Assembly: GCF_009914755.1 (NCBI RefSeq)
Contig: NC_060929.1
Reading direction: 5' to 3' (one strand)
DNA from: the human T2T-CHM13v2.0 reference genome, Homo sapiens
Length of the DNA: 64,000 nucleotides
A program made the translations under genes and the position numbers. Every line of letters starts with the position of its first letter. The first letter of the stretch is position 1. This document shows, piece by piece, positions 22,586 through 43,978 of the stretch. The notes under the pieces are model-generated. The model did no database searches. It worked only from the letters and a program-made list of their open reading frames with translations, and was not told the DNA's origin.

Positions 22586-23750
22586 TGACTTTACGTTTTA
22601 TTCTATTTAACACTGGTGATATAAAGATTTTTAAGTAGACTTAAATTTTAAAAATAAGTAGATTTAAAATATGAAGGCAATAATATAGCTTCGTATTTTA
22701 CAAAGCTGGTTATCATTAAAAACTTCTTCACCTTTAGAAACTCCCTGTAGTTAACCACAGGAGACAATAAGGTGTTTAGGAGAAGATAATAATAATATGA
22801 GTGCCATAAGCACAGAATCTTAACAGTGGCCCAGCAATTAGTACAATTTAGGAACTACTGGTTTAGCCCATCCCTCTCAATAGAAAACAGATAAGGAAAC
22901 AGAGACTCAGAATAAGGAAGATATTCTTTTCTAAGATCATACAGCTGGTTATCATTAAGCTCTGTTCTCCTCTGTCCCTCCTCATCTAGGTAATTGCATT
23001 CGACAACAAATTCTGCAGTGTTAAAGTGAAGGAAATTGGATATAAAATACCCAACAATTGTGATGTGGGCTTTCAGGAAGGTGATGGTTCAAGAGGCTGG
23101 TGTGTACTATAGGGGAGGCATAGACGCAAAGACTTGTTGTATAGCACCTTGTGCTGAAAGCCTAAACTCCTCAATTTCTCAGGGCACCAAGAAAAATCTT
23201 TGGGCCTGCCTCAAAGGTTGCAGTGGCAGAGATTCCTCTGGAGTCAAGCAAAAGACGGCTCGAATCCCAGCTTCTCAGCTTGGCAAAAAACCATTTTCCA
23301 TGTCTCAACTCATCTCTTTATTCATGCTACTCTTTACTATTATCATTCCTATAAAATGTTATAGGAAAAATAATAGCTAACAGTTATGGAGCACTTGGTA
23401 TCTGCCAAGCACCTCTGATGAATTATCTCACTTAACCCTCAAACTAACACTGGAAGGCAGTTATTATCGTTCCATACGATAGGTGAGGACATCTGCACTC
23501 TGAATAGTTAATCGCTTATCTGCATCTATACAACTAAGCAGGTGATAGAATAGGATTCAAACCCAAGTGGCTTCATTCCAGAGTCTGCACTTAACGCTAC
23601 CGCTATCCTGTGCGACTCAAATGCAGATAAGGGTTGCAAAAGCCTGGCACACTGGGGGTAAGGAATGTCAGTGCTTTTTCCGCCAACGTGGCCGCGCGAG
23701 TCAGTTGTAACCCGGCATCCAGAACCTTCTCCGTAGGGGCCTTGCCTGGG

Positions 23751-23769
23751 ACTACAACTCCCAGGATGC
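23751..23769 (+). promoter_or_regulatory. ZNF143/THAP11 (SBS) motif
   Basis: ACTACAACTCCCAGGATGC = ACTACAnnTCCCA consensus. Confidence 0.8.
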
Positions 23770-23785
23770 CGCAGGCGGAGAAGCT

Positions 23786-23805
23786 GGCCAATCAGGGGGC
23801 GCGGC
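23786..23805 (+). promoter_or_regulatory. NF-Y CCAAT box and adjacent GC box
   Basis: GGCCAATCAG followed by GGGGCGCGGC. Confidence 0.65.
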
Positions 23806-23861
23806 TTCGCCTTCACCGTCGGCTCCCTGCTCCTGTCAGAACCTCGGTGACGGTTGGCCAG
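23800..23861 (+). other. C5orf58: Probable non-coding exon 1 of C5orf58 (start approximate)
   Basis: Donor CAG|GTGGGT at 23861/23862, just downstream of the promoter motifs. Confidence 0.5.
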
Positions 23862-24425
23862 GTGGGTAGTGACGGCTGCTCGGTCTTGAAGGATCCTAAT
23901 CTGGTTTGGGAGGGTGAAGACCGCTGAAATTTCCAGGCTGCCCGAGGCTCCACCTTCCACCACCCAACGGGTGGGCGGTGGGCCGGGCTGGCCTCGGAGC
24001 CTCTCCCTGGGTGTCGGTTGGGCCGAGAAGGGGACGGTTGGCTGGGTGGGCCTGGCGGCTGGTGGCTGTCCGTAGGCCGGGGTCACTCTGAGGGCATTTT
24101 ACATTACCCTAATCCTGTCCACTTGGCAAGAAACTTAGTAAGCCCCAAAGGTTCATTCCAAATCCTGTCTGGGAGGGCGAGGACTGTGGAAACTTCCAGA
24201 TGCCTCAGGCTCCATCTTTAGCTGTTGAGCGGGTGGTTGGGCCGCTCATGGCCCCAAAGATCTGGGGGGTCTTCATGGGCAGTTGGGTCGCTGAGGGCCC
24301 TAAAGATCTGGGGCTCCTCCCAGGTGTCAGTTGGGCCAAGGAGGAGGCTGGGCTTTCAGAGTAGAACCTGCGGTGCTAACGATGGCTCTGCAGGGCTGCG
24401 GGCTGAGGGCCTGGGCGGCGTCCTG

Positions 24426-25830: not shown

Positions 25831-25924
25831 ATGGGTAAGAAGCGTGTTACTGATCATAAGCTAAATGTGGACAAAGTAATTAAAAATATTAACACAATTT
25901 CTTCGGAGTTGAAGAAGATAAAAG
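25831..25924 (+). CDS. C5orf58: C5orf58 coding exon (MGKKRVTDHKLNVDKVIKNINTISSELKKIK)
   Basis: Pyrimidine tract + CAG|ATG; donor AAG|GTAAGT; 94 nt, ends phase 1. Confidence 0.88.
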
Positions 25925-28299
25925 GTAAGTATTGAATCACTAAAATGTTTGCATGTCATTGTTATAAAATAAATGATAGAGCCAGTTTGTGTTTCTGCTG
26001 GGGTATAAGTAAATTTTGCCCACTAATTAGGATTTCTCTATTTCTTAACAAATGTTTTCAGTGTAAGTGAACTAGATCTCTAAAGATGAATTATGTTCGA
26101 CTTTGGAGTTAGCAGACCTGAATTCCCATCCCTGACATTAATAAGCTTATCAGGTTGTCTAACCTCTGTAAATTTTACTTCCCTTCCTTCCCTTCAACAC
26201 ACCATTCAAGACTATGTCACATTCAGCAAAATTCATTGTCTTTATAAATTCTTACTAAGCCCCTAAGGTCCATTCCAAATTAAAAAGTATAAATTAGATT
26301 CTGTGACTTAAAGCTTCTTCATTTTAAACAGATTCATATAGTAGGATTAGACCTTATAGGTCATGATGTTTAGTCGCTCACCTCACAGACATATTCAGTT
26401 ATTTTATCCCAAGAAAATTTCTGTGATTGAATATTTCTAGGGATAATCTATCCCTGACCAAACATTTCTTATGCTGGGGAACTTCCTGTCTCACTAGTCA
26501 ATCCATTCTATTTTAAACAATTCCTTCTCACCAGCTAGCTGAAATCTGTTCCCCTATTGCTTTCACCTAAGAGTCCTATTTCTAACCATGAAAACTACAC
26601 TGAATATGTAGTTATTCTTTTTAAAACAACTCTTGGGTATTTAAAGATAACCTGTGTCAGTTATGAGGCCTACATCTATAAGTAACAAAAAAACCAACTT
26701 AACTTATACAATAAGGAAAAACAAGAAGATCCAAGGTAGCAGAGCCCTAAAGTTAATTCAGAGGTTTAAAGATTTTGTCAGGGACCAGGCTCTTTCCATC
26801 TTTCTGCTCTGTCATGTTCACTCTCTTTATTACCCCTCATGATCATTACCTTCAGAGGTGCTCATATATAGACAGTCTCTTTTTATAAGTCTCCTCCCAG
26901 ATCCCTCCAGCACAGTTCCCTTTCATTGGCCAGATTTGCATCACATGCTGATGCTTACAGCAGCCACAGCTAAGGGGACTGGGACTGCCAAGACCAGTTT
27001 GGACCACTCAGAACTTACTACAGGAGCTGGGGAAAGGAACACCTCAAACAAAATCAAGCTGTGACTCCAAGAAGAAGAGGGCATGGCCGTTCGTTAGGCA
27101 CCAAATAATGAGTGCCTAATATGCTTTTTCCATGTGTTCTCCCTAGGACAGCATTTCCTGGACTTTGATCTGTGAACCCTGCTGTTTCAAGCAATGTTAA
27201 TAGATGGTGTACAGTAGAACAGAGTCAATGTTCTTATGGCCAAATAAGTTTGGAAAGTGCTTTATGCTACATATTTCACAAATTTACAGTACATATTAAG
27301 AAATCTGACTACCTTTAATTCATCATTTCTCAAAACCAGCTTCAACACCACAGTGAAGATTCTCCTTCTAAAATGCGAATCTGCAGAAAACCCTCATTGG
27401 CTCACCATTGTCCTCAGGATAAAGTCTAAACATCTTAGAATGGACTATATGACCTGCTCAGATCATTCCCCTCCTTTCCCCTCTAGTCTCTTACTCTGTT
27501 CTTACTGCATGTTCTATGCTCCAGCTGTACTGAACTATTTGCATATCTCCACAAGTGCTTTTCTGTATCTGTTTCAACACATACTTGTCTGTCTGAAATC
27601 CCATTGCTATACCCTACCTCCAACACACCAGGTTAACTGCTAGTAGTCAAGGTCTCTTACAATGGAAAACTTTTTTTGAGCCAGCATGTTATCCTTTCTG
27701 CCTTTTGCTATCACCTGTTATACTATTTTATAATTGCATATTTCCTTACTTTTCTTATCCCTGCTCAACTGTAAGCTCCTTATGGGTATTTCTAGTACTT
27801 AACACGGTGCCTTGATTGATTCGATTCTTAAAAAATTTTTATTAAATGAATAAATGGTTCTGGATGCTTGAACTCATTTAAAACAGTTAAGAAGCTTTAG
27901 ATTCCCCCCAAACTTGATTATCTAATTGTTCTAGTTTGGAGAATATTCTTTCATAAAATAAAATGTAATAACTATGTGATAGATGTTTTCTTGAGACATT
28001 GTATGGGTAGGTCAGGCAGTTAGACTCTGAGGGACCTGTAGAGCTACGCTAGGAAGGTAGACTTCTGGTAAATGTAGAGGATTAAATGAACACTCTGTGC
28101 ACCCTCACTTCCTCCCCTAAATAGTAATGTCAGCAGCCAACCTTTACAGAATTTACCATAATCCAGGACTCTTCTAAGAGCTCTGCATAAATGAACTCTC
28201 TTCATCATAATCCTATGAGGTAGGAACTATTGCCATTGGCATTTACAGATGTGTAAATAGAGAGATTTAACTTTTTCAAGGTCAAGCAACTAGTCAGTG

Positions 28300-29760: not shown

Positions 29761-30848
29761 GGAACAGATCAAAAAGAGAGACACAGGAATCTGGGGAAAA
29801 GGGCACTCCACAGAATGGAGGGATAAAAGGAGTCTCTAGGATATTAGTGAAGGGAGTTCCCAAGATACCAGCTGTACAGCAGTGCTAGTAAGCAATCAGT
29901 TCAGATTGGAGCAAATCAGAAGGCTCCAGGAGAGGAGAGACGTTTAACAATAGAATAGCTAAGGTGTTGAATAACCCAAGAGCAAATTTACTCAATTGGG
30001 GGACATTTAGGATATATTTCTGATAATGCAGCAATGAAAAAACCCAATTATTACCTCTGGTGGGTTGCGTGCAGGAAGGAAAATGTCATATGACAAGACT
30101 CAGCTATGAAGAATATTTGTATAATTAACATTTAAACATTAGATAATTGAGCTAAGCAAAAATTTTTCCTGAAGTATATTGGGAGAGAAGAGGGTGTGTG
30201 AAAGAGCTGTATCTTAATCTTCTGTGTCAGAGGCAGGTAACACTGAAAATTGAAAAAAAAAAAAAATCAAATCTCAAAAAATTTAAAGTTACAGAGGTAA
30301 ACACCACCCCACCGCTCCCCACAATAAAAATACTCAAAACAGACACACTGAAATGACCAAAGCAACAAAAACAAAGTGAGCTATAAAAAAAAAAAATTAA
30401 AATGGTTGCCTCTGGGAGATTGGAACTGCAGTTTTTTTGTAACATGCCTTAGACTTATCTGATTCTTGGTACTATATGCATGTATAACATAGATAAAAAT
30501 AAGTTAAAACCATATAAATCAAATTTGTATAAATCAAGTTGCAGTTTAGTGATATAGCCGAGAAGTTGGGCTAAAGAGCACCCTTTTAGTAAGTTTTTAT
30601 GTCATGCTTATTTTGTAATAACATAAATCTTATTTTTTTTTTAATTATACTTTAAGTTTTAGGGTACATGTGCACATTGTGCAGGTTAGTTACATATGTA
30701 TACATGTGCCATGCTGGTGCGCTGCACCCACTAACTCGTCATCTAGCATTATGTGTATCTCCCAATGCTATCCCTCCCCCGTCCCCCCACCCCACCACAG
30801 TTCCCAGAGTGTGATATTCCCCTTCCTGTGTCCATGTGATCTCATTGT

Positions 30849-34675
<3,827 letters not shown>

Positions 34676-34738
34676 TATGATGTTAGCTGGTGATTTTGCT
34701 CATTAGTTGATGCAGTTTCTTCCTAGTCTCGATGGTCT

Positions 34739-35756
34739 TTACATTTTGGCATGATTTTGCAGCGGCTGGTACCAGTTGTTCCTTTCCATGTTTAGCGCTT
34801 CCTTCAGGAGCTCTTTTAGGGCAGGCCTGGTGGTGACAAAATCTCTCAGCATTTGCTTGTCTGTAAAGTATTTTATTTCTCCTTCACTTATGAAGCTTAG
34901 TTTGGCTGGATATGAAATTCTGGGTTGAAGATCCTTTTCTTTAAGAATGTTGAATATTGGCCCCCACTCTCTTCTGGCTTGTAGGGTTTCTGCCAAGAGA
35001 TCCGCTGTTAGTCTGATGGGCTTCCCTTTGAGGGTAACCCGACCTTTCTCTCTGGCTGCCCTTAACATTTTTTCCTTCATTTCAACTTTGGTGAATCTGA
35101 CAATTATGTGTCTTGGAGTTGCTCTTCTCGAGGAGTATCTTTGTGGCGTTCTCTGTATTTCCTGAATCTGAACATTGGCCTGCCTTGCTAGATTGGGGAA
35201 GTTCTCCTGGATAGTATCCTGCAGAGTGTTTTCCAACTTGGTTCCATTCTCCCCATCACTTTCAGGTACACCAGTCAGACGTAGATTTGGTCTTTTCACA
35301 TAGTCCCATATTTCTTGGAGGCTTTGCTCATTTCTTTTTATTCTTTTTTCTCTAAACTTCCCTTCTCGCTTCATTTCATTCATTTCATCTGCCATTGCTG
35401 ATACCCTTTCTTCCAGTTGATCTCATCGGCTCCTGAGACTTCTGCATTCTTCACGTAGTTCTCGAGCCTTGGTTTTCAGCTCCATCAGCTCCTTTAAGCA
35501 CTTCTCTGTATTGGTTATTCTAGTTATACATTCTTCTAAATTTTTTTCAAAGTTTTCAACTTCTTTGCCTTTGGTTTGAATGTCCTCCCGTTAGCTCAGA
35601 GTAATTTGATCGTCTGAAGCCTTCTTCTCTCAGCTCGTCAAAGTCATTCTCCATCCAGCTTTGTTCTGTTGCTGGTGAGGAACTGTGTTCCTTTGGAGGA
35701 GGAGAGGCGCTCTGCGTTTTAGAGTTTCCAGTTTTTCTGTTCTGTTTTTTCCCCAT
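34739..35756 (-). pseudogene. L1 ORF1, disrupted
   Basis: MGKKQNRK start at 35756; +1 frameshift near 35590 and a TGA at 35425-35423; C-terminal 218 aa open. Confidence 0.92.
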
Positions 35757-36205
35757 CTTTGTGGTTTTATCTACTTTTGGTCTTTGATGATGGTGATGTA
35801 CAGATGGGTTTTTGGTGTGGATGTCCTTTCTGTTTGTTAGTTTTCCTTCTGACACACAGGACCCTCAGCTGCAGGTCTGTTAGAATACCCTGCCGTGTGA
35901 GGTGTCAGTGTGCCCCTGCTGGGGGGGTGCCTCCCAGTTAGCCGGGTCAGGGGTCAGGGACCCACTTGAGGAGGCAGTCTGCCCGTTCTCAGATCTCCAG
36001 CTGCGTGCTGGGAGAACCACTGCTCTCTTCAAAGCTGTCAGACAGGGACATTTAAGTCTGCAGAGGTTACTGCTGTCTTTTTGTTTGTCTGTGCCCTGCC
36101 CCCAGAGGTGGAGCCTACAGAGGCAGGCAGGCCTCTTTGAGCTGTGGTGGGCTCCACCCAGTTCGAGCTTCCCAGCTGCTTTGTTTACCTAATCAAGCCT
36201 GGGCA

Positions 36206-36421
36206 ATGGTGGGCGCCCCTCCCCCAGCCTCGCTGCTGCCTTGCAGTTTGATCTCAGACTGCTGTGCTAGCAATCAGCGAGACTCCGTGGGCGTAGGACC
36301 TTCCAAGCCAGGTGCGGGATATAATCTCGTGGTGCGCCGTTTTTTAAGCCGGTCTGAAAAGCACAATATTCAGGTGGGAGTGACCCGATTTTCCAGGTGC
36401 GTCCGTCACCCCTTTCTTTGA
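36206..36421 (+). CDS. L1 ORF0 (71 aa, intact) in the antisense 5'UTR
   Basis: MVGAPPPASLLPCSLISDCCASNQRDSVGVGPSKPG...SRCVRHPFL*; ATG context GCAATGG; both CAG|GTGCG donors retained. Confidence 0.85.
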   Translation: MVGAPPPASLLPCSLISDCCASNQRDSVGVGPSKPGAGYNLVVRRFLSRSEKHNIQVGVTRFSRCVRHPFL

Positions 36422-36818
36422 CTCGGAAAGGGAACTCCCTGACCCCTTGCACTTCCCAAGTGAGGCAATGCCTCGCCCTGCTTCGGCTCGCACACCGTGC
36501 GCGCACCCACTGACCTGCGCCCACTGTCTGGCACTCCCTAGTGAGATGAACCCGGTACCTCAGATGGAAATGCAGAAATCACCTGTCTTCTGCGTCGCTC
36601 ACGCTGGGAGCTGTAGACCGGAGCTGTTCCTATTCAGCCATCTTGGCTCCTCGAGAGCATAAATCTTATTTTAAGTCAGAATGGGACACACTTAAGTTGT
36701 GGTTTGATCACTAATCACTTGGAAATTAGGAATTAGGAAGAAATAGCTACTTAAAGCAATAATAGTTTTTTATGACATATGTGCTACAATATAATATCTC
36801 CTGTTTTGTTTTGCACAG

Positions 36819-36970
36819 AGCTCTCCCAGTTATTGCTTTGTGACCTTATCCTACATTTTAATCATCCCATCAAGACTGAGAACTTAGCAGAAGCAGAAAG
36901 AAACAACCCCCTCTTTGAAGAGTCTAAAATATCAGATGTATCCCTTGTTTCTAACAGTTTTTCTATCTGA
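36819..36970 (+). CDS. C5orf58: C5orf58 last coding exon (ELSQLLLCDLILHFNHP...SNSFSI*)
   Basis: Acceptor TTTTGCACAG|, phase 1 matching the previous exon; total 81 aa (102 aa with extension). Confidence 0.88.
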
Positions 36971-37065
36971 TTTCTTATTTGTTATGAGTTTCTGTTTTAT
37001 TGTTGAACTAACAAATATTTGGGAGAGTTGAGTTTACTAATTTGTATATATATAATTTAAAACAA

Positions 37066-37071
37066 AATAAA
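37066..37071 (+). terminator. C5orf58: C5orf58 polyadenylation signal
   Basis: AATAAA ~95 nt after the stop, with T/GT-rich sequence downstream. Confidence 0.65.
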
Positions 37072-38956
37072 AATAATGTAAACAAGCAGTTCATGTTCTT
37101 GAAGGCTGTTTAATGTTTTGAAGAATGGCTTAACTTACGTCACTAATGGCAAGTGTATGACATAGGAAATTGGCCATGGGTCACTGCTTATCCTTTAGCT
37201 TATGCTTGAATTTGGCTCAGGTTGAAAGAGAGCTACTAAATTATTAATTGATGGAATGAGTTTTTATTAATCAGAACTCTCCTGGTAGTGAACGCCAAGC
37301 ACAACTCAACCAGCTGAAGCATTTATTGAGTCATGTGACTTGGAAGCACATAGTTGGAATAGATTTCAGGGATCCCACTAATTTGTCCATACTTTTACTG
37401 TGTTTTTGTGTGTTGGCCTCGTTGTCTTCTATAGTAGACTGGTTCTTCCAGATAATTGGTAAATGGGAGTAGTTGCAGGGCAGCAGGCAGCTCCAAGTGT
37501 ACAGCATTGCCTTTGGGGACCCCAGATAAAAGAGAGATCTTGTCTCAGGCTTCATGTTTAACATTCCAGAGAGTGACCCTGATTGACCCAGCTTTAGTAA
37601 GATGTTTATCACTGAGCAGGGTTCTGAGCAACTGTGACTGATGCACCTGGGGTCATATAGAAGGTCTGTGGCCAAAAGAGGCAAGGCCCAGCCAAAAGGA
37701 GTTGTCGGTGCTTGAACAGAGAGAGAATGCTAGTCATGAAAACATTAGCTTCCCAACATTGATTTCAGTCATAGCCATGGAACAGAACATCTTAATCCTG
37801 ATGGCACTTTCCACTAATAGACTTAAAATGAGCTTTGGTTTGTTTTATAAACATGATTCGCTACCAAATAGTTGCTTTGAAATCTATCAGGTCCTTCATT
37901 TTAGATATTTTTGAATTGTAAAGATAGAATACGGCAAAGCAAGACAAGTGGAGCTTACTCGATACTAGAACCTATGGTGTATGCTATCCTTACTACCTTG
38001 TACCTAGCTCACTTGTTTAACACAGAAGAGCCACTAAGTAAATACTTGCTGAATAGCCCGTTGTGTAGACGTGTAAATGAATGCAGGGTTTTCAGCCTTA
38101 AACTCCCAAGTTTTGGACCCTAAACTGAGAACTTCTGGTTGTTAAGGATGAGATTTTGTGAAACACCATTTTTATCATCAGTTAAAAGTCTCTACCTTCT
38201 GCATACTCCTTATTTTAACATATCATCAGTTTTAAAATGGTGACTTCTTAGATTCCTTCCAATACCCCTTTTATTAGCTCATGAAAATGAAGCTGCAAGA
38301 TACTCTTTTCCATTTCGAAAACTTGTAGATTAAGCAGAGACGCCAAAAATTGTTGCTAATAAAAGTTGTGCAATAACAACCAAGGTCCCAAAGGGAAAAA
38401 CTTGAAGAACAACTGATTGTCACTATTTGGCTGAATACCAGTTTTTTAATCTGGCTGAATGCCTATATTTTTTGTTAAGTGATATTTGTAAACTGGAGGA
38501 AAGAGTTTAATTACCTCAAAGCACTTATACAGCCTGTTTGGGAAGGATGAGGAGAAGGGACTTTATGGCAGAGCTGTCAGGGGGATAACAAGAGACAGAA
38601 GAGCCATATCTAATAGGAAAGTCTGATCACATTTAATCTAAAGTGTTGCTCCCTCGTCTTCCCAGGAAGCCTTTGGTAAAATCTATATCCCTGGACAATG
38701 CTTTTGGGGTTGGGAGAAGGTTGGTGGGGGGCTGTGATGGTTGGTGTGGGTGTGGAGATGTGAAGAAATGCCAACTTAACCCCAGATGTGTTCATTAAAC
38801 CTAGACCCACGATACACCAAAGTCTCATCCCTAAATTTAAAATGTTTTCTTTTGGTATTTGTAGTTTAAATTTTCTTTAAGACAAAAATATAACAGTATG
38901 GACTAAAAGTCAATAAAGTTGTTTTAGGAAACCAAAAAAGTAAAGCAAAAGACTAT

Positions 38957-41745: not shown

Positions 41746-42556
41746 CTAAAAAGACAAATTCCTGTTATTATGGGAGCAGTAAAAGTCAATATTTTTGTTG
41801 CTTGTAAGAGTAGTAGACAAGCCTCTAGGGATCTGACAAACATGTCAGTTGCACTTTGCAGCTTCTTGAGTGCAAAACCTGTCATTCAACGAACATTCAG
41901 TTCTCCAAACAGCTACATATCCCATGTGTCATGAGTTATTTTGTTATTAAGAAAGGCAACAGAGATTGTATCAAAGAAATTTCCAAGTCAATCTCGTTAA
42001 AGCCTCCTGATAAAAACGGAATCTTTTGTTCAGTAATAAATAATGGGTGGTTGAGTGGATAAAAGGCCAGGAGAAATAAAATACTTTATTGGTTAACTCA
42101 AGATATATCTTCCTAGTATTCCTGTGAGTTAATTCCCTAAACTTTCTTTTCCACATCCAAAGTCAGAAAACATCCACATGCCATGAAATTCACCCTTCTT
42201 AAAACCCTGTGATCTCTAGATAGTCTTTCCTTCATCAGACCCTTGAGCAAAATTGAATGCAGATGTTCTCTTTTCTTTTCTTTTTTCTGATATTTGCTAA
42301 ACTACTGTTTTGATTGTCCTGTACTTTAAATTTCCATTCAATAAATTATTGCTACATAATATTAATACTGTAAAGATCTAATATTAAAATAGAATTAATT
42401 GGTAAGGACTCCTTTAAACTACTCCCTTCTCCTCATACCAAATCAGGATAGCTTTAAATAGCCATGAGTTGGCAATAATGACTTTCCTTTGTTCCTTTTA
42501 TTGCAAGTTAATTGAGCCTGTCAGAACATCTCTGCTAAACAAACATACTTCTGGAC

Positions 42557-42730
42557 CAGTGATTCACAGTCTTGGCTTCAAATTAGAATTACCTGGGAAG
42601 TTTGAAGACTCCCAGAGCTGACACAGCACCCCCAGAATAATTAGAATCTCAAGGTGAGACCCAGGAATCGGGATTTTTCAAAAGTTCTCCGGGTGATCTA
42701 AATGTGCAACTACTACTGAGAACTACTGGT
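42557..42730. mobile_element. MER5A-like hAT remnant
   Basis: CAGTGATTCACAG..TTAGAATTACCTGGG..TGAGAACTACTG termini. Confidence 0.6.
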
Positions 42731-43293
42731 GTGGAGTTTAAGTGTGAAAGATGAAAGATTTTTGCTTTCCCATTTCTGATAAATAAATCTAAGGTAAAGT
42801 TTCGGCACTGGCTACGGGAAATATGTTTAAGACTTTATGATATTAAAGGACTAGCTAGAAACGTCTAGGGCAAAAAGCAAAAAGTTGCTGCCGTCTCTTT
42901 AATATTGGTCCTTTCACATCAACATGGATGGCACGTCTGTGTTAAGAGGAAGATAGAACTGGTACGATGTTGGAACTTTGAAAGAGAGTCTCCTTCTGAC
43001 ACCATGTGATTCCTATGACAAGACAGACTCTTTCATTAATAAAATCTCCTAAGATGCTGCCAACCAAATGACTGCCTTGAGATTCTTCTGCCAGCCTAAT
43101 GATTCCCGAGCCTAGGAATCCCTGCTATGGGTGCTGGTAGTTGTGAAGCTGGCACTAATGGGTCTCCTAGGTATTACAGAAAGCAACAGCACCTAGCAGA
43201 ATTCCTAGCTTGTAATTGGTACTCAGGACAGGTCAGTTCCCTTCTCTGCCATTAATATTTACAACTATGTTAAAATAAACTATAGCACAATAC

Positions 43294-43371
43294 CTGGTTT
43301 ATCTTTCTAAGAGCAGCTTCTGCCTCTGGTCGGGTAATATAAGAAACGTACCACTCTTCATTTAATGAATT
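43294..43371 (-). CDS. LCP2: LCP2 exon 19, NSLNEEWYVSYITRPEAEAALRKINQ
   Basis: CAG|..CAG|GTATTG, 78 nt, SH2 N-terminal WY motif. Confidence 0.96.
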
Positions 43372-43978
43372 CTGAAAATGTAAATTTTTAGAAACTGAAT
43401 AAATTTTACAGTTACAGATGTAAGTGAAAAGAAAAGCCTCTGAGTAATCATTTCCATAAATCAACACCTCAATTCCAGGAGGTCTGAAACATTTGTTTTC
43501 TTAATTTGCATTCAGAGTCATTTAGCTGGGGCTAAATAGAAGATATTTTGTGCGAACTGCTTTTTATCATGACACTGGTTGCAAAAATGCCTGTGAATAA
43601 GAGTTCCTTACAGTATGGAACCTCTTCAGGAAAGATACAGATACAATAATTTCTTCAGTTTAGCATAATAACCTGCTTGATTAAAAAAATGGGTTATTGA
43701 GCAGTTAAGTGACGAATCAAGGTCATAAACATAAAAAACAGGATTATTTTTCTTGCTGTTTAATGCAAAACACATGTTTGCCATTGAAAGCGTCTGAAAG
43801 AATGCCAAGGGAAAAGAACATATTGTTCATCTGGATCTTCTCCTTTAACTTTTTTTTCAAATAAATAAAATAAAACAAAGGGAAGATAAAAGTACAGAAG
43901 AACATTCAATGGGAGTTTCTGGTGATTCTTTTACCAGGGAAAAGGCAAACAAACAAAAATAAAAACATGCTCTCTTAC

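What the first reader, a model, noticed from the sequence alone, without database searches (positions are those of the whole stretch)
36206..36970. Intact L1 ORF0 positioned to splice in frame into the last C5orf58 exon: predicted 85-aa chimeric protein
Seen: the intronic L1 has broken ORF1 and ORF2 but a complete 71-aa ORF0 (ATG 36206, GCAATGG context). Its first donor CCAG|GTGCGG (36311/36312) falls after 35 codons + 1 nt (phase 1). The C5orf58 terminal exon acceptor (36818/36819), 507 nt away, is also phase 1. Joining gives MVGAPPPASLLPCSLISDCCASNQRDSVGVGPSKP-E-LSQLLLCDLILHFNHPIKTENLAEAERNNPLFEESKISDVSLVSNSFSI (85 aa), with the native stop and AATAAA and no downstream junction to trigger NMD. 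Established: primate L1 antisense promoters drive ORF0, and ORF0 donors can fuse to nearby host exons. Inference: a self-contained, lineage-specific L1-promoted fusion gene, probably active where L1 is demethylated (germline, pluripotent cells, tumours). I cannot tell whether it has been reported.
Basis: partly seen in the sequence, partly recalled or inferred. Interest (0 to 1): 0.85.

Follow-up and report, generated by a model that had tools for sequence, protein, structure and literature searches.

The report
Latent L1 ORF0–C5orf58 in-frame fusion
A young LINE-1 element in the last intron of C5orf58 could, by sequence alone, splice its small antisense ORF0 in frame onto the gene's last exon, but this is an ordinary feature of such elements and I found no evidence that the fusion is made.

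Summary
There is a 71-aa ORF0 at 36206-36421. A donor at 36311/36312 is in phase 1 and the C5orf58 terminal-exon acceptor at 36818/36819 is also in phase 1. Joining them gives an 85-aa open chimera that ends at the native stop, with AATAAA at 37066.

The arrangement is not unusual. The element is a full-length, hominoid-age L1 with a 15-bp target-site duplication. Of its 39 nearest sister copies, 31 keep an intact ORF0 and 38 keep the same donor. The phase match is a 1-in-3 coincidence. Two equally good donors, at 36373 and 36396, are out of frame.

ORF0-exon fusion is a known kind (Denli 2015, as quoted: 57 fusions observed among about 3200 loci). I found no sign that this junction is used:
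- It is absent from two published lists of L1 chimeric transcripts.
- The RefSeq models in the hub table do not include it.
- None of 25 related database proteins has an ORF0-like N-terminus.

The one suggestive datum is that C5orf58 is induced in DNMT1-knockout neural progenitors, but the gene's own CpG-intermediate promoter could explain that. The chimera would keep only about 14 of the 45 residues of C5orf58's conserved helix.

Verdict: a real but latent fusion, whose expression is untested.

The parts
30639..36652 (-). Full-length LINE-1 (young primate L1PA type, probably L1PA2/L1PA3-like). It lies antisense to C5orf58 in the gene's last intron. ORF1 and ORF2 are broken.
   Evidence: Stop-to-stop frames are fragmented. 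Pfam finds Transposase_22, Tnp_22_dsRBD, Tnp_22_trimer, Exo_endo_phos and RVT_1 on the pieces. The nearest genomic copies are 96-97% identical over the 5'UTR and 97-98% over the 3' kb. The T-run of the tail is visible at about 30639-30644.
30624..30638 (.). Target-site duplication, copy at the L1 3' end (15 bp)
   Evidence: The same 15 bases are found at 36658-36672.
36658..36672 (.). Target-site duplication, copy at the L1 5' end (15 bp)
   Evidence: Five extra bases (36653-36657) lie between the L1 body and this copy.
35757..36652 (-). L1 5'UTR (about 898 nt), with no large deletion
   Evidence: The ORF1 ATG lies at about 35756 on the minus strand. The stretch aligns end to end with 9 sister copies at 95.7-97.0% identity with small gaps only. 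It holds 32 CpG.
36055..36255 (+). Expected position of the L1 antisense promoter and its start sites (L1 nt about 400-600). This is inferred, not measured, at this locus.
   Evidence: The position is carried over from Criscione 2016 section 7 (antisense ESTs lie within the first 600 nt, with the primary start near nt 400). L1 numbering is anchored on the ORF0 start codon at nt 452-450 (Garza 2023 passage).
36206..36421 (+). L1 ORF0, 71 codons plus stop, ATG in the context GCAATGG
   Evidence: No Pfam family matches. The same ORF is intact in 31 of 39 nearest copies.
36309..36317 (+). Donor 1 (CAG|GTGCGG, cut after 36311), phase 1, about L1 nt 347. This is the in-frame donor.
   Evidence: It matches the consensus at 7 of 9 positions. 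Its U1 duplex energy is -7.2 kcal/mol against a median of -7.55 for 20 annotated exon ends in the window. A GT is present at this place in 38 of 39 sister copies.
36371..36379 (+). Extra donor-like site (CAG|GTGGGA, cut after 36373), phase 0. It was made by a CGG-to-CAG change nearly private to this copy.
   Evidence: 35 of 39 sister copies read CGGGTGGGA and 1 of 39 reads CAGGTGGGA. Its U1 duplex energy is -10.3. Using it would give a 78-aa product with an out-of-frame tail.
36394..36402 (+). Donor 2 (CAG|GTGCGT, cut after 36396), phase 2, about L1 nt 262. Out of frame with the exon.
   Evidence: 8 of 9 consensus matches and -7.5 kcal/mol. A GT lies 191 nt from the ATG in 36 of 39 sister copies. 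The product would be 71 aa with a 7-residue foreign tail.
36312..36818 (+). Would-be intron of 507 nt (341 nt of L1 5'UTR antisense, 5 extra nt and 161 nt of unique intron)
   Evidence: It holds no poly(A) signal. Only two weaker acceptor-like AGs lie before 36818.
36819..37088 (+). Terminal exon of C5orf58 (coding 36819-36970, AATAAA at 37066-37071)
   Evidence: Hub table. The peptide is conserved at 67-92% identity in placental mammals. The exon is single-copy in the genome.
25831..25924 (+). Native first coding exon of C5orf58 (31 codons + 1 nt), which the chimera would replace
   Evidence: Hub table. It encodes the first two-thirds of the predicted conserved helix.

Best explanation
The stretch is the 5' end of an ordinary full-length, hominoid-age LINE-1. 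It inserted antisense into the last intron of C5orf58, so that its 5' end lies 166 nt upstream of the gene's terminal exon. Like most of its sister copies, it still carries the family's standard antisense ORF0 with its standard internal splice donors.

The first donor is in phase 1 and the ancient terminal exon is entered in phase 1. So an RNA that starts at the L1 antisense promoter upstream of the ORF0 AUG and is spliced 36311^36819 would encode the 85-aa chimera and end at the gene's own poly(A) site.

This is a latent ORF0-exon fusion of the kind already described for human L1s. The frame match is a 1-in-3 coincidence. If the RNA is made at all, it is most likely a rare by-product that appears only when methylation is lost. 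It would compete with two out-of-frame donors and with unspliced ORF0 RNA. Its product would lack most of C5orf58's conserved helix, so a selected function is unlikely.

What is shown: the anatomy, the frame, the family-wide commonness of the features, and the conservation and predicted fold of C5orf58. What is inferred: promoter activity at this locus, donor choice, translation, and lack of function.
For: - Anatomy and frame.
- L1 identity, target-site duplication and broken ORFs.
- Commonness: 31 of 39 nearest copies have an intact ORF0, 38 of 39 have donor 1 and 36 of 39 have donor 2. There were 5105 first-look candidates for this 5'UTR piece in the genome.
- Known kind: about 3200 genic ORF0 loci, 57 with observed exon fusion (Criscione 2016 passage quoting Denli 2015); ORF0 has two donors and can fuse to downstream exons (review passage).
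- Competing donors of equal or greater U1 complementarity. Their out-of-frame products.
- The main EST-defined antisense start lies near L1 nt 400, while the ORF0 start codon is at nt 452-450. Many antisense RNAs may therefore lack the AUG.
- No record of the fusion: 0 occurrences of the gene name in 10 supplementary files of the 988-gene EST catalogue, 0 in 3 files of the brain/glioma study, no RefSeq exon starting in the L1 (hub table), 0 of 25 protein relatives with an ORF0-like N-terminus, and no retrocopy of the exon in the genome.
- Predicted fold: the Saimiri ortholog, modelled with a 16-sequence alignment, is one helix over residues 2-46 (pLDDT 97-98 for residues 11-40) followed by a disordered tail. 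The exon junction at residue 31/32 falls in mid-helix.
Against: - The geometry is very favourable. A strong constitutive acceptor is the first good acceptor downstream, 507 nt from the donor. There is no intervening poly(A) signal and no upstream ATG.
- The 5'UTR has no large deletion and keeps 32 CpG, so the promoter may well fire when demethylated.
- C5orf58 rises from a mean of 0 to about 13 normalised counts (padj 2e-3) in DNMT1-knockout human neural progenitors. That study attributes gene activation to young L1 antisense promoters (one passage of supplementary file 1; the title is).
- The catalogues that lack the gene are incomplete. One is EST-based and one covers brain only.
- I could not see Denli's own list of 57 fusions.
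- I had no access to RNA-seq junctions, CAGE, Ribo-seq or proteomics.
Confidence: 0.68

Rival explanations
1. The locus is a working L1-promoted fusion gene: the antisense promoter fires in germline, pluripotent or tumour cells, donor 36311 is used, and an 85-aa ORF0-C5orf58 protein is made.
For: - The frame, Kozak context, lack of an upstream ATG, terminal-exon position (so no nonsense-mediated decay) and native poly(A) signal are all confirmed.
- ORF0-exon fusion products have been detected in cells, according to passages that cite Denli 2015.
- C5orf58 is induced on loss of DNMT1.
- C5orf58 appears among the cancer/testis genes discussed in a genome-wide screen, so it is expressed where L1s are often derepressed.
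Against: - There is no trace of the fusion in two chimeric-transcript lists, in RefSeq or in protein databases (hub table).
- Only one of three comparable donors is in frame.
- The main antisense start may lie downstream of the AUG.
- The product keeps about 14 of 45 helix residues, placed after a proline-rich ORF0 segment.
- The base rate of observed fusion is 57 of about 3200 loci.
Confidence: 0.12
2. The L1 antisense promoter at this locus is active when demethylated, but its output is not the in-frame chimera. Instead it gives one or more of three products: unspliced RNA that encodes plain ORF0 and borrows the C5orf58 poly(A) site about 880 nt from the ORF0 start codon; RNAs spliced from 36373 or 36396 with short out-of-frame tails; or RNAs starting near L1 nt 400 that lack the ORF0 AUG and are in effect non-coding.
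For: - No poly(A) signal lies between ORF0 and 37066.
- Donors 36373 (-10.3 kcal/mol) and 36396 (-7.5, 8 of 9 consensus matches) are at least as good as 36311 (-7.2, 7 of 9).
- Their products are 78 aa and 71 aa with foreign tails.
- The primary antisense start lies near nt 400 by ESTs, against the AUG at nt 452-450.
- Reads on the terminal exon from any of these RNAs would be counted as C5orf58, which fits.
Against: - ESTs are 5'-incomplete, so the nt-400 figure may understate upstream starts.
- Primers placed at about L1 nt 580-600 do amplify antisense ORF0 RNA (primer sequences match window 36058-36077).
- Nothing measured at this locus favours one donor over another.
Confidence: 0.25
3. 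The L1 plays no part in C5orf58 expression. The methylation-dependent behaviour of the gene comes from its own promoter at about 23600-24000.
For: - The canonical promoter has intermediate CpG density (GC 0.59-0.65, CpG observed/expected 0.63-0.71), a class typical of methylation-silenced germline genes (established knowledge, recalled).
- The rows next to C5orf58 in the DNMT1-knockout table are germline genes (DCAF12L1, RHOXF1).
- A TCGA study calls C5orf58 a methylation-driven gene in liver cancer.
Against: The data seen are gene-level counts and cannot tell the two promoters apart. A young full-length L1 166 nt upstream of the counted exon is exactly the configuration that the DNMT1-knockout study invokes (title and abstract start).
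Confidence: 0.45

Closest known systems
L1 ORF0-proximal exon fusions (Denli et al. 2015, Cell 163:583; known here only through citing passages and from recall, because the paper is not held)
   Same: A primate L1PA 5'UTR carries an antisense 71-aa ORF0 with a strong start context and internal donors. A host exon lies downstream on the same strand in a compatible frame.
   Different: For the published cases the junction was observed in RNA. Here it is only predicted. I could not check whether C5orf58 is among the 57 listed cases.
L1 antisense-promoter chimeric transcripts such as L1-MET (Speek 2001; Criscione 2016, PMC4908685)
   Same: An intronic full-length young L1, antisense to its host gene, offers an alternative downstream start that skips the gene's 5' exons. 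Of 2316 EST-exon overlaps, 2134 are sense to the gene.
   Different: C5orf58 is not among the 988 genes in the supplementary files searched. Only the last exon would be captured, so the product is a micro-protein and not an N-terminally truncated enzyme or receptor.
L1PA2-driven LINC01876 (Garza et al. 2023, PMC10619931; passages)
   Same: A hominoid-age L1 antisense promoter drives a lineage-specific spliced RNA, and the state of the ORF0 start codon matters for the outcome.
   Different: In that case ORF0 is disabled in humans (M1T) and the RNA is non-coding. Here ORF0 is intact and the downstream exon is coding.

Membership tests
Young primate LINE-1 (L1PA), full length | About 6 kb with a 5'UTR of about 900 nt, ORF1 (Transposase_22 domains), ORF2 (endonuclease + reverse transcriptase), an A-tail and a target-site duplication | tested here: met
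   The ORFs are broken but recognisable. The duplication is 15 bp. The 5'UTR aligns over its full length with sister copies.
Young primate LINE-1 (L1PA), full length | Assignment to a named subfamily (L1PA2 or L1PA3) by diagnostic positions | not tested
   No reference set was on hand and I built no consensus. Only pairwise identity to the nearest copies was measured: 96-97% over the 5'UTR and 97-98% over the 3' kb. That fits an age of very roughly 8-15 million years. The subfamily ages are recalled, not taken from a call.
L1 ORF0 locus | An antisense ORF of about 70-71 codons starting at L1 nt about 452 with a strong start context | tested here: met
   The position agrees with the start codon at nt 452-450 implied by A451G = M1T.
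L1 ORF0-exon fusion | A splice donor inside ORF0 and a downstream same-strand host acceptor that keeps the frame open | tested here: met
   This holds at the sequence level only.
L1 ORF0-exon fusion | The junction is observed in RNA (EST, RNA-seq or long reads) | tested here: inconclusive
   No expression data are available to the tools. The gene name is absent from the supplements of two catalogues, both of which are incomplete. Further supplements could not be opened.
L1 ORF0-exon fusion | Translation of the fusion (Ribo-seq, mass spectrometry or tagged reporter) | not testable with these tools
   None.
L1 antisense-promoter chimeric transcript | [quoted passage not shown] | not testable with these tools
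   The only finding is that the promoter region is present without large indels.

The most novel reading that the evidence does not exclude
In hominoids, a conserved mammalian micro-protein gene (C5orf58: one long helix plus a disordered tail) has gained a second, L1-driven isoform. When L1s are demethylated (germline reprogramming, pluripotent cells, tumours), the antisense promoter yields an 85-aa protein. In it, the first 31 residues of the helix are swapped for the 35-residue N-terminus of ORF0. That could give the conserved C-terminal tail a new localisation, or make a dominant-negative form. The product would be a lineage-specific protein and a possible tumour-restricted antigen.
Probability: 0.08. 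Interest if true: 0.55.

Novelty: new member of a known kind. Interest (0 to 1): 0.3.

Why it matters
If the junction is used, this would be a compact case of a retrotransposon giving an old gene both a new promoter and a new N-terminus in apes. Its junction peptide would be absent from normal somatic tissue. As it stands, it shows how often such in-frame arrangements arise by chance, because roughly four in five sister L1 copies carry the same ORF0 and donor. Prediction from sequence alone therefore over-calls fusion genes. There is also a practical point: reads from any L1 antisense RNA ending at this poly(A) site would be counted as C5orf58 in gene-level expression tables.

Tried and rejected
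2. Denli 2015 and Speek 2001, the primary papers for ORF0 and the antisense promoter: not held. Donor usage and the list of 57 fusions could therefore not be checked.
3. Further supplements: paper reading closed. The supplements of PMC12791003 were not searched. The supplements of PMC10879037, PMC10506190 and PMC9288060, which I had planned to search, were not searched either. The header and the rest of the DNMT1-knockout table could not be read. These files may bear on whether the fusion has been seen.
4. Literature link: full-text searches for C5orf58 with LINE-1 (1 paper, on lung-fibrosis methylation by its title and abstract) and with 'transposable' (4 papers) gave nothing on L1 chimeras by title. 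None of the 30 listed of 35 C5orf58 papers is about L1 by title.
5. Retrocopy test: a processed copy of a germline-expressed chimera might preserve the junction, but the terminal exon is single-copy in the genome. This is uninformative.
6. Pfam on ORF0 and on both C5orf58 exon peptides: no family.
7. Protein database search for an annotated chimera using the 49-aa exon peptide (proteins of 26-86 aa searched): 25 hits, all ordinary C5orf58 orthologs or intron-started ORF calls.
8. Selection as the explanation for ORF0 being intact: rejected, because 31 of 39 sister copies are intact too.
9. Proper splice-site scoring: no MaxEnt model was available. I used consensus matches and U1 duplex energy against 20 annotated exon ends in the window. 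One of those 20 (27107) has no GT and is probably a transcript end, so the comparison is crude.

Full report
**1. The observation**

Every sequence statement in the finding is correct.
- The + strand has an ATG at 36206 in the context GCAATGG. It opens a 71-codon frame that ends at 36421.
- The donor CAG|GTGCGG is cut after 36311, 106 nt from the A of the ATG, which is 35 codons plus 1 nt.
- The annotated C5orf58 coding parts are 94 and 152 nt. The terminal exon (acceptor 36818/36819, preceded by a good pyrimidine tract) is therefore entered in phase 1.
It ends at the native stop. The only poly(A) hexamer in 36200-37200 is at 37066.
- There is no ATG on the + strand between 35900 and 36205.

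**2. What the element is**

- On the minus strand, the stretch from about 30639 to 36652 is a full-length LINE-1.
- Its frames are broken into many pieces. These still score as L1 ORF1 domains (Transposase_22 E = 3e-63, plus the trimerisation and dsRBD-like domains), endonuclease and reverse transcriptase.
- It is flanked by a perfect 15-bp target-site duplication at 30624-30638 and 36658-36672.
- The 5'UTR is about 898 nt. It aligns end to end with nine sister copies at 95.7-97.0% identity, with small gaps only.
- The nearest copies of the last kilobase are 97-98% identical (39 other copies scored out of 3658 first-look candidates).
- This fits a hominoid-age element of the L1PA2/L1PA3 kind. 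I did not assign a subfamily by diagnostic sites, and the ages attached to those names are from recall.
- The L1 5' end lies 166 nt upstream of the terminal exon of C5orf58, and the element is antisense to the gene.

**3. Is the arrangement special?**

- I fetched the 39 best other matches to the 511-nt piece 36150-36660 (5105 first-look candidates, 40 scored, one of them the window itself).
- 38 of the 39 start with ATG at the homologous place.
- 31 of 39 have an intact 71-aa ORF0.
- 38 of 39 have a GT donor 106 nt from the ATG, and 36 of 39 have a second GT donor at 191 nt.
- These 39 are the copies most like this one, so they are not a random sample of all L1s.
- The intact ORF0 and its donor are thus the default state of the family, and there is no sign of constraint at this locus.
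- The phase match with the downstream exon is a 1-in-3 event for a given donor.
- This copy has donor-like sites in all three phases: 36311 (phase 1), 36373 (phase 0) and 36396 (phase 2).
- The site at 36373 arose from a CGG-to-CAG change. 35 of 39 sister copies lack it and 1 of 39 shares it.

**4. Competing outcomes**

Donor strength was compared by consensus matches and by computed pairing to the 5' end of U1 snRNA:

| Donor | Consensus matches | U1 duplex energy (kcal/mol) | Frame with the terminal exon |
|---|---|---|---|
| 36311 | 7 of 9 | -7.2 | in frame |
| 36373 | 7 of 9 | -10.3 | out of frame |
| 36396 | 8 of 9 | -7.5 | out of frame |

- The median energy for 20 annotated exon ends in the window is -7.55. 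One of those 20, at 27107, has no GT and is probably a transcript end.
- Splicing from 36373 or 36396 to the same acceptor gives 78-aa and 71-aa products with short foreign tails.
- No poly(A) signal lies between ORF0 and 37066. An unspliced RNA encoding plain ORF0 could therefore also end at the C5orf58 poly(A) site.
- Criscione et al. 2016 (section 7 read in full) place the primary antisense start near L1 nt 400. A passage in Garza et al. 2023 implies that the ORF0 start codon is at nt 452-450 (A451G = M1T).
- With that anchor, the ATG at 36206 is nt 452, and nt 400 falls near window 36258, downstream of the AUG.
- ESTs are 5'-incomplete. Primers at about L1 nt 580-600 (matching window 36058-36077) are used to amplify antisense ORF0 RNA. 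Upstream starts therefore exist, but their share is unknown.

**5. What is known of the kind**

- Passages that cite Denli et al. 2015 state three things: L1HS and L1PA2-8 carry ORF0; there are about 3200 genic ORF0 loci; and for 57 of them a fusion of ORF0 to a gene exon was observed.
- They also state that ORF0 has two donors through which it can fuse to downstream exons.
- The mechanism is therefore already in print. The Denli paper itself is not held, and neither is Speek 2001.

**6. Has this case been seen?**

- The gene name does not occur in the 10 supplementary files (913,054 characters) of the EST catalogue of 988 L1 antisense transcripts.
- It does not occur in the 3 supplementary files of the brain/glioma chimeric-transcript study.
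- No RefSeq exon in the hub table starts in the L1.
- Full-text searches for C5orf58 together with LINE-1 (1 paper) or 'transposable' (4 papers) turn up nothing on L1 chimeras by title.
- None of the 30 listed of 35 papers naming the gene is about L1 by title.
- A search of the protein collection with the 49-aa exon peptide (proteins of 26-86 aa searched) gave 25 hits. All are ordinary C5orf58 orthologs or ORF calls that start in the intron, and 0 of 25 have an ORF0-like N-terminus.
- The exon has no second copy in the genome that might preserve a spliced junction.
- Paper reading closed, so several further supplement lists could not be searched.

**7. One datum in favour**

- In supplementary file 1 of the DNMT1-knockout neural-progenitor study (PMC6639357), the C5orf58 row shows group means of 0 and about 12.9, with an adjusted P of 2.0e-3 (one passage seen, header not seen).
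- The title and abstract start of that paper attribute gene activation to LINE-1 elements.
- However, the neighbouring rows are germline genes.
- The gene's own promoter (23600-24000) has intermediate CpG density: GC 0.59-0.65 and observed/expected 0.63-0.71.
- A TCGA study calls C5orf58 methylation-driven.
- Gene-level counts cannot tell the two promoters apart.

**8. What the chimera would be**

- C5orf58 is an old gene. Orthologs of 79-84 aa occur in primates, rodents, a colugo, a rhinoceros, bats, whales, carnivores and a shrew. They are 67-92% identical to the human terminal-exon peptide and 57-75% identical over the whole protein to the Saimiri ortholog, and both exons are conserved.
- An AlphaFold2 model of the Saimiri ortholog, built with 16 sequences, gives one continuous helix over residues 2-46 (block pLDDT 97-98 for residues 11-40). 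Residues 52-81 form a low-confidence tail (mean pLDDT 72, pTM 0.46).
- The exon junction at residue 31/32 falls in the middle of that helix.
- The junction codon is the same Glu in both the native and the chimeric joins.
- The chimera would keep about 14 helix residues, placed behind a Pro- and Cys-rich ORF0 segment.
- A C5orf58-like function is therefore unlikely. A new function cannot be excluded.

**9. Verdict**

The frame match is not beyond chance, and I could find no evidence that the junction is used.
- I put about 0.12 on a regularly made 85-aa protein.
- I would put a higher figure, perhaps 0.4 (my judgement, not a computed value), on at least rare 36311^36819 junction reads existing somewhere in public data.
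- The decisive test is a junction and start-site look-up, which needs data I do not have.

Noticed in passing
window 37066-37114: C5orf58 (+) and LCP2 (-) end tail to tail with one base between them (37088 and 37090). Each has its own hexamer: AATAAA at 37066-37071 on the + strand, and ATTAAA on the - strand at 37114-37109. An alternative C5orf58 exon (42508-43430) also overlaps LCP2 exons on the other strand. In unstranded RNA-seq, LCP2 reads could be counted as C5orf58. That may explain why the gene turns up in immune-infiltration signatures (CD8+ correlation; macrophage study title).
   Followed up: partly
window 36652-37090, minus strand: The L1 is in the same orientation as LCP2, and its 5' end lies about 440 nt downstream of the LCP2 poly(A) site. 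Read-through from LCP2 in leukocytes would run into the L1 in sense. That could mimic L1 expression or interfere with the antisense promoter.
   Followed up: no
window 25831-25924 and 36819-36970: C5orf58 is conserved across placental orders. It is predicted to be a single 45-residue helix with a hydrophobic stripe, followed by a disordered acidic tail. No Pfam family matches. This looks like a coiled-coil or partner-binding micro-protein of unknown function.
   Followed up: partly
window 36779-36970: A 63-aa ORF that starts at an intronic ATG and runs through the terminal exon is in the protein collection as a cluster standing for 479 contigs with no named source (P0001). Similar intron-started 64-67-aa calls occur for other mammals. 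These look like prokaryote-style gene calls on mammalian DNA in assemblies.
   Followed up: no
window 36372: A CpG-to-CpA change turns CGGGTGGGA into CAGGTGGGA. It makes a strong donor-like site in phase 0 and at the same time changes ORF0 residue 56 from Arg to Gln. Only 1 of 39 sister copies has the same change.
   Followed up: yes
window 36653-36657: Five bases (GAGAG) lie between the L1 body and the target-site duplication, where the element's first few G residues would be expected. This points to a slightly 5'-truncated copy with extra or diverged bases at the junction.
   Followed up: no
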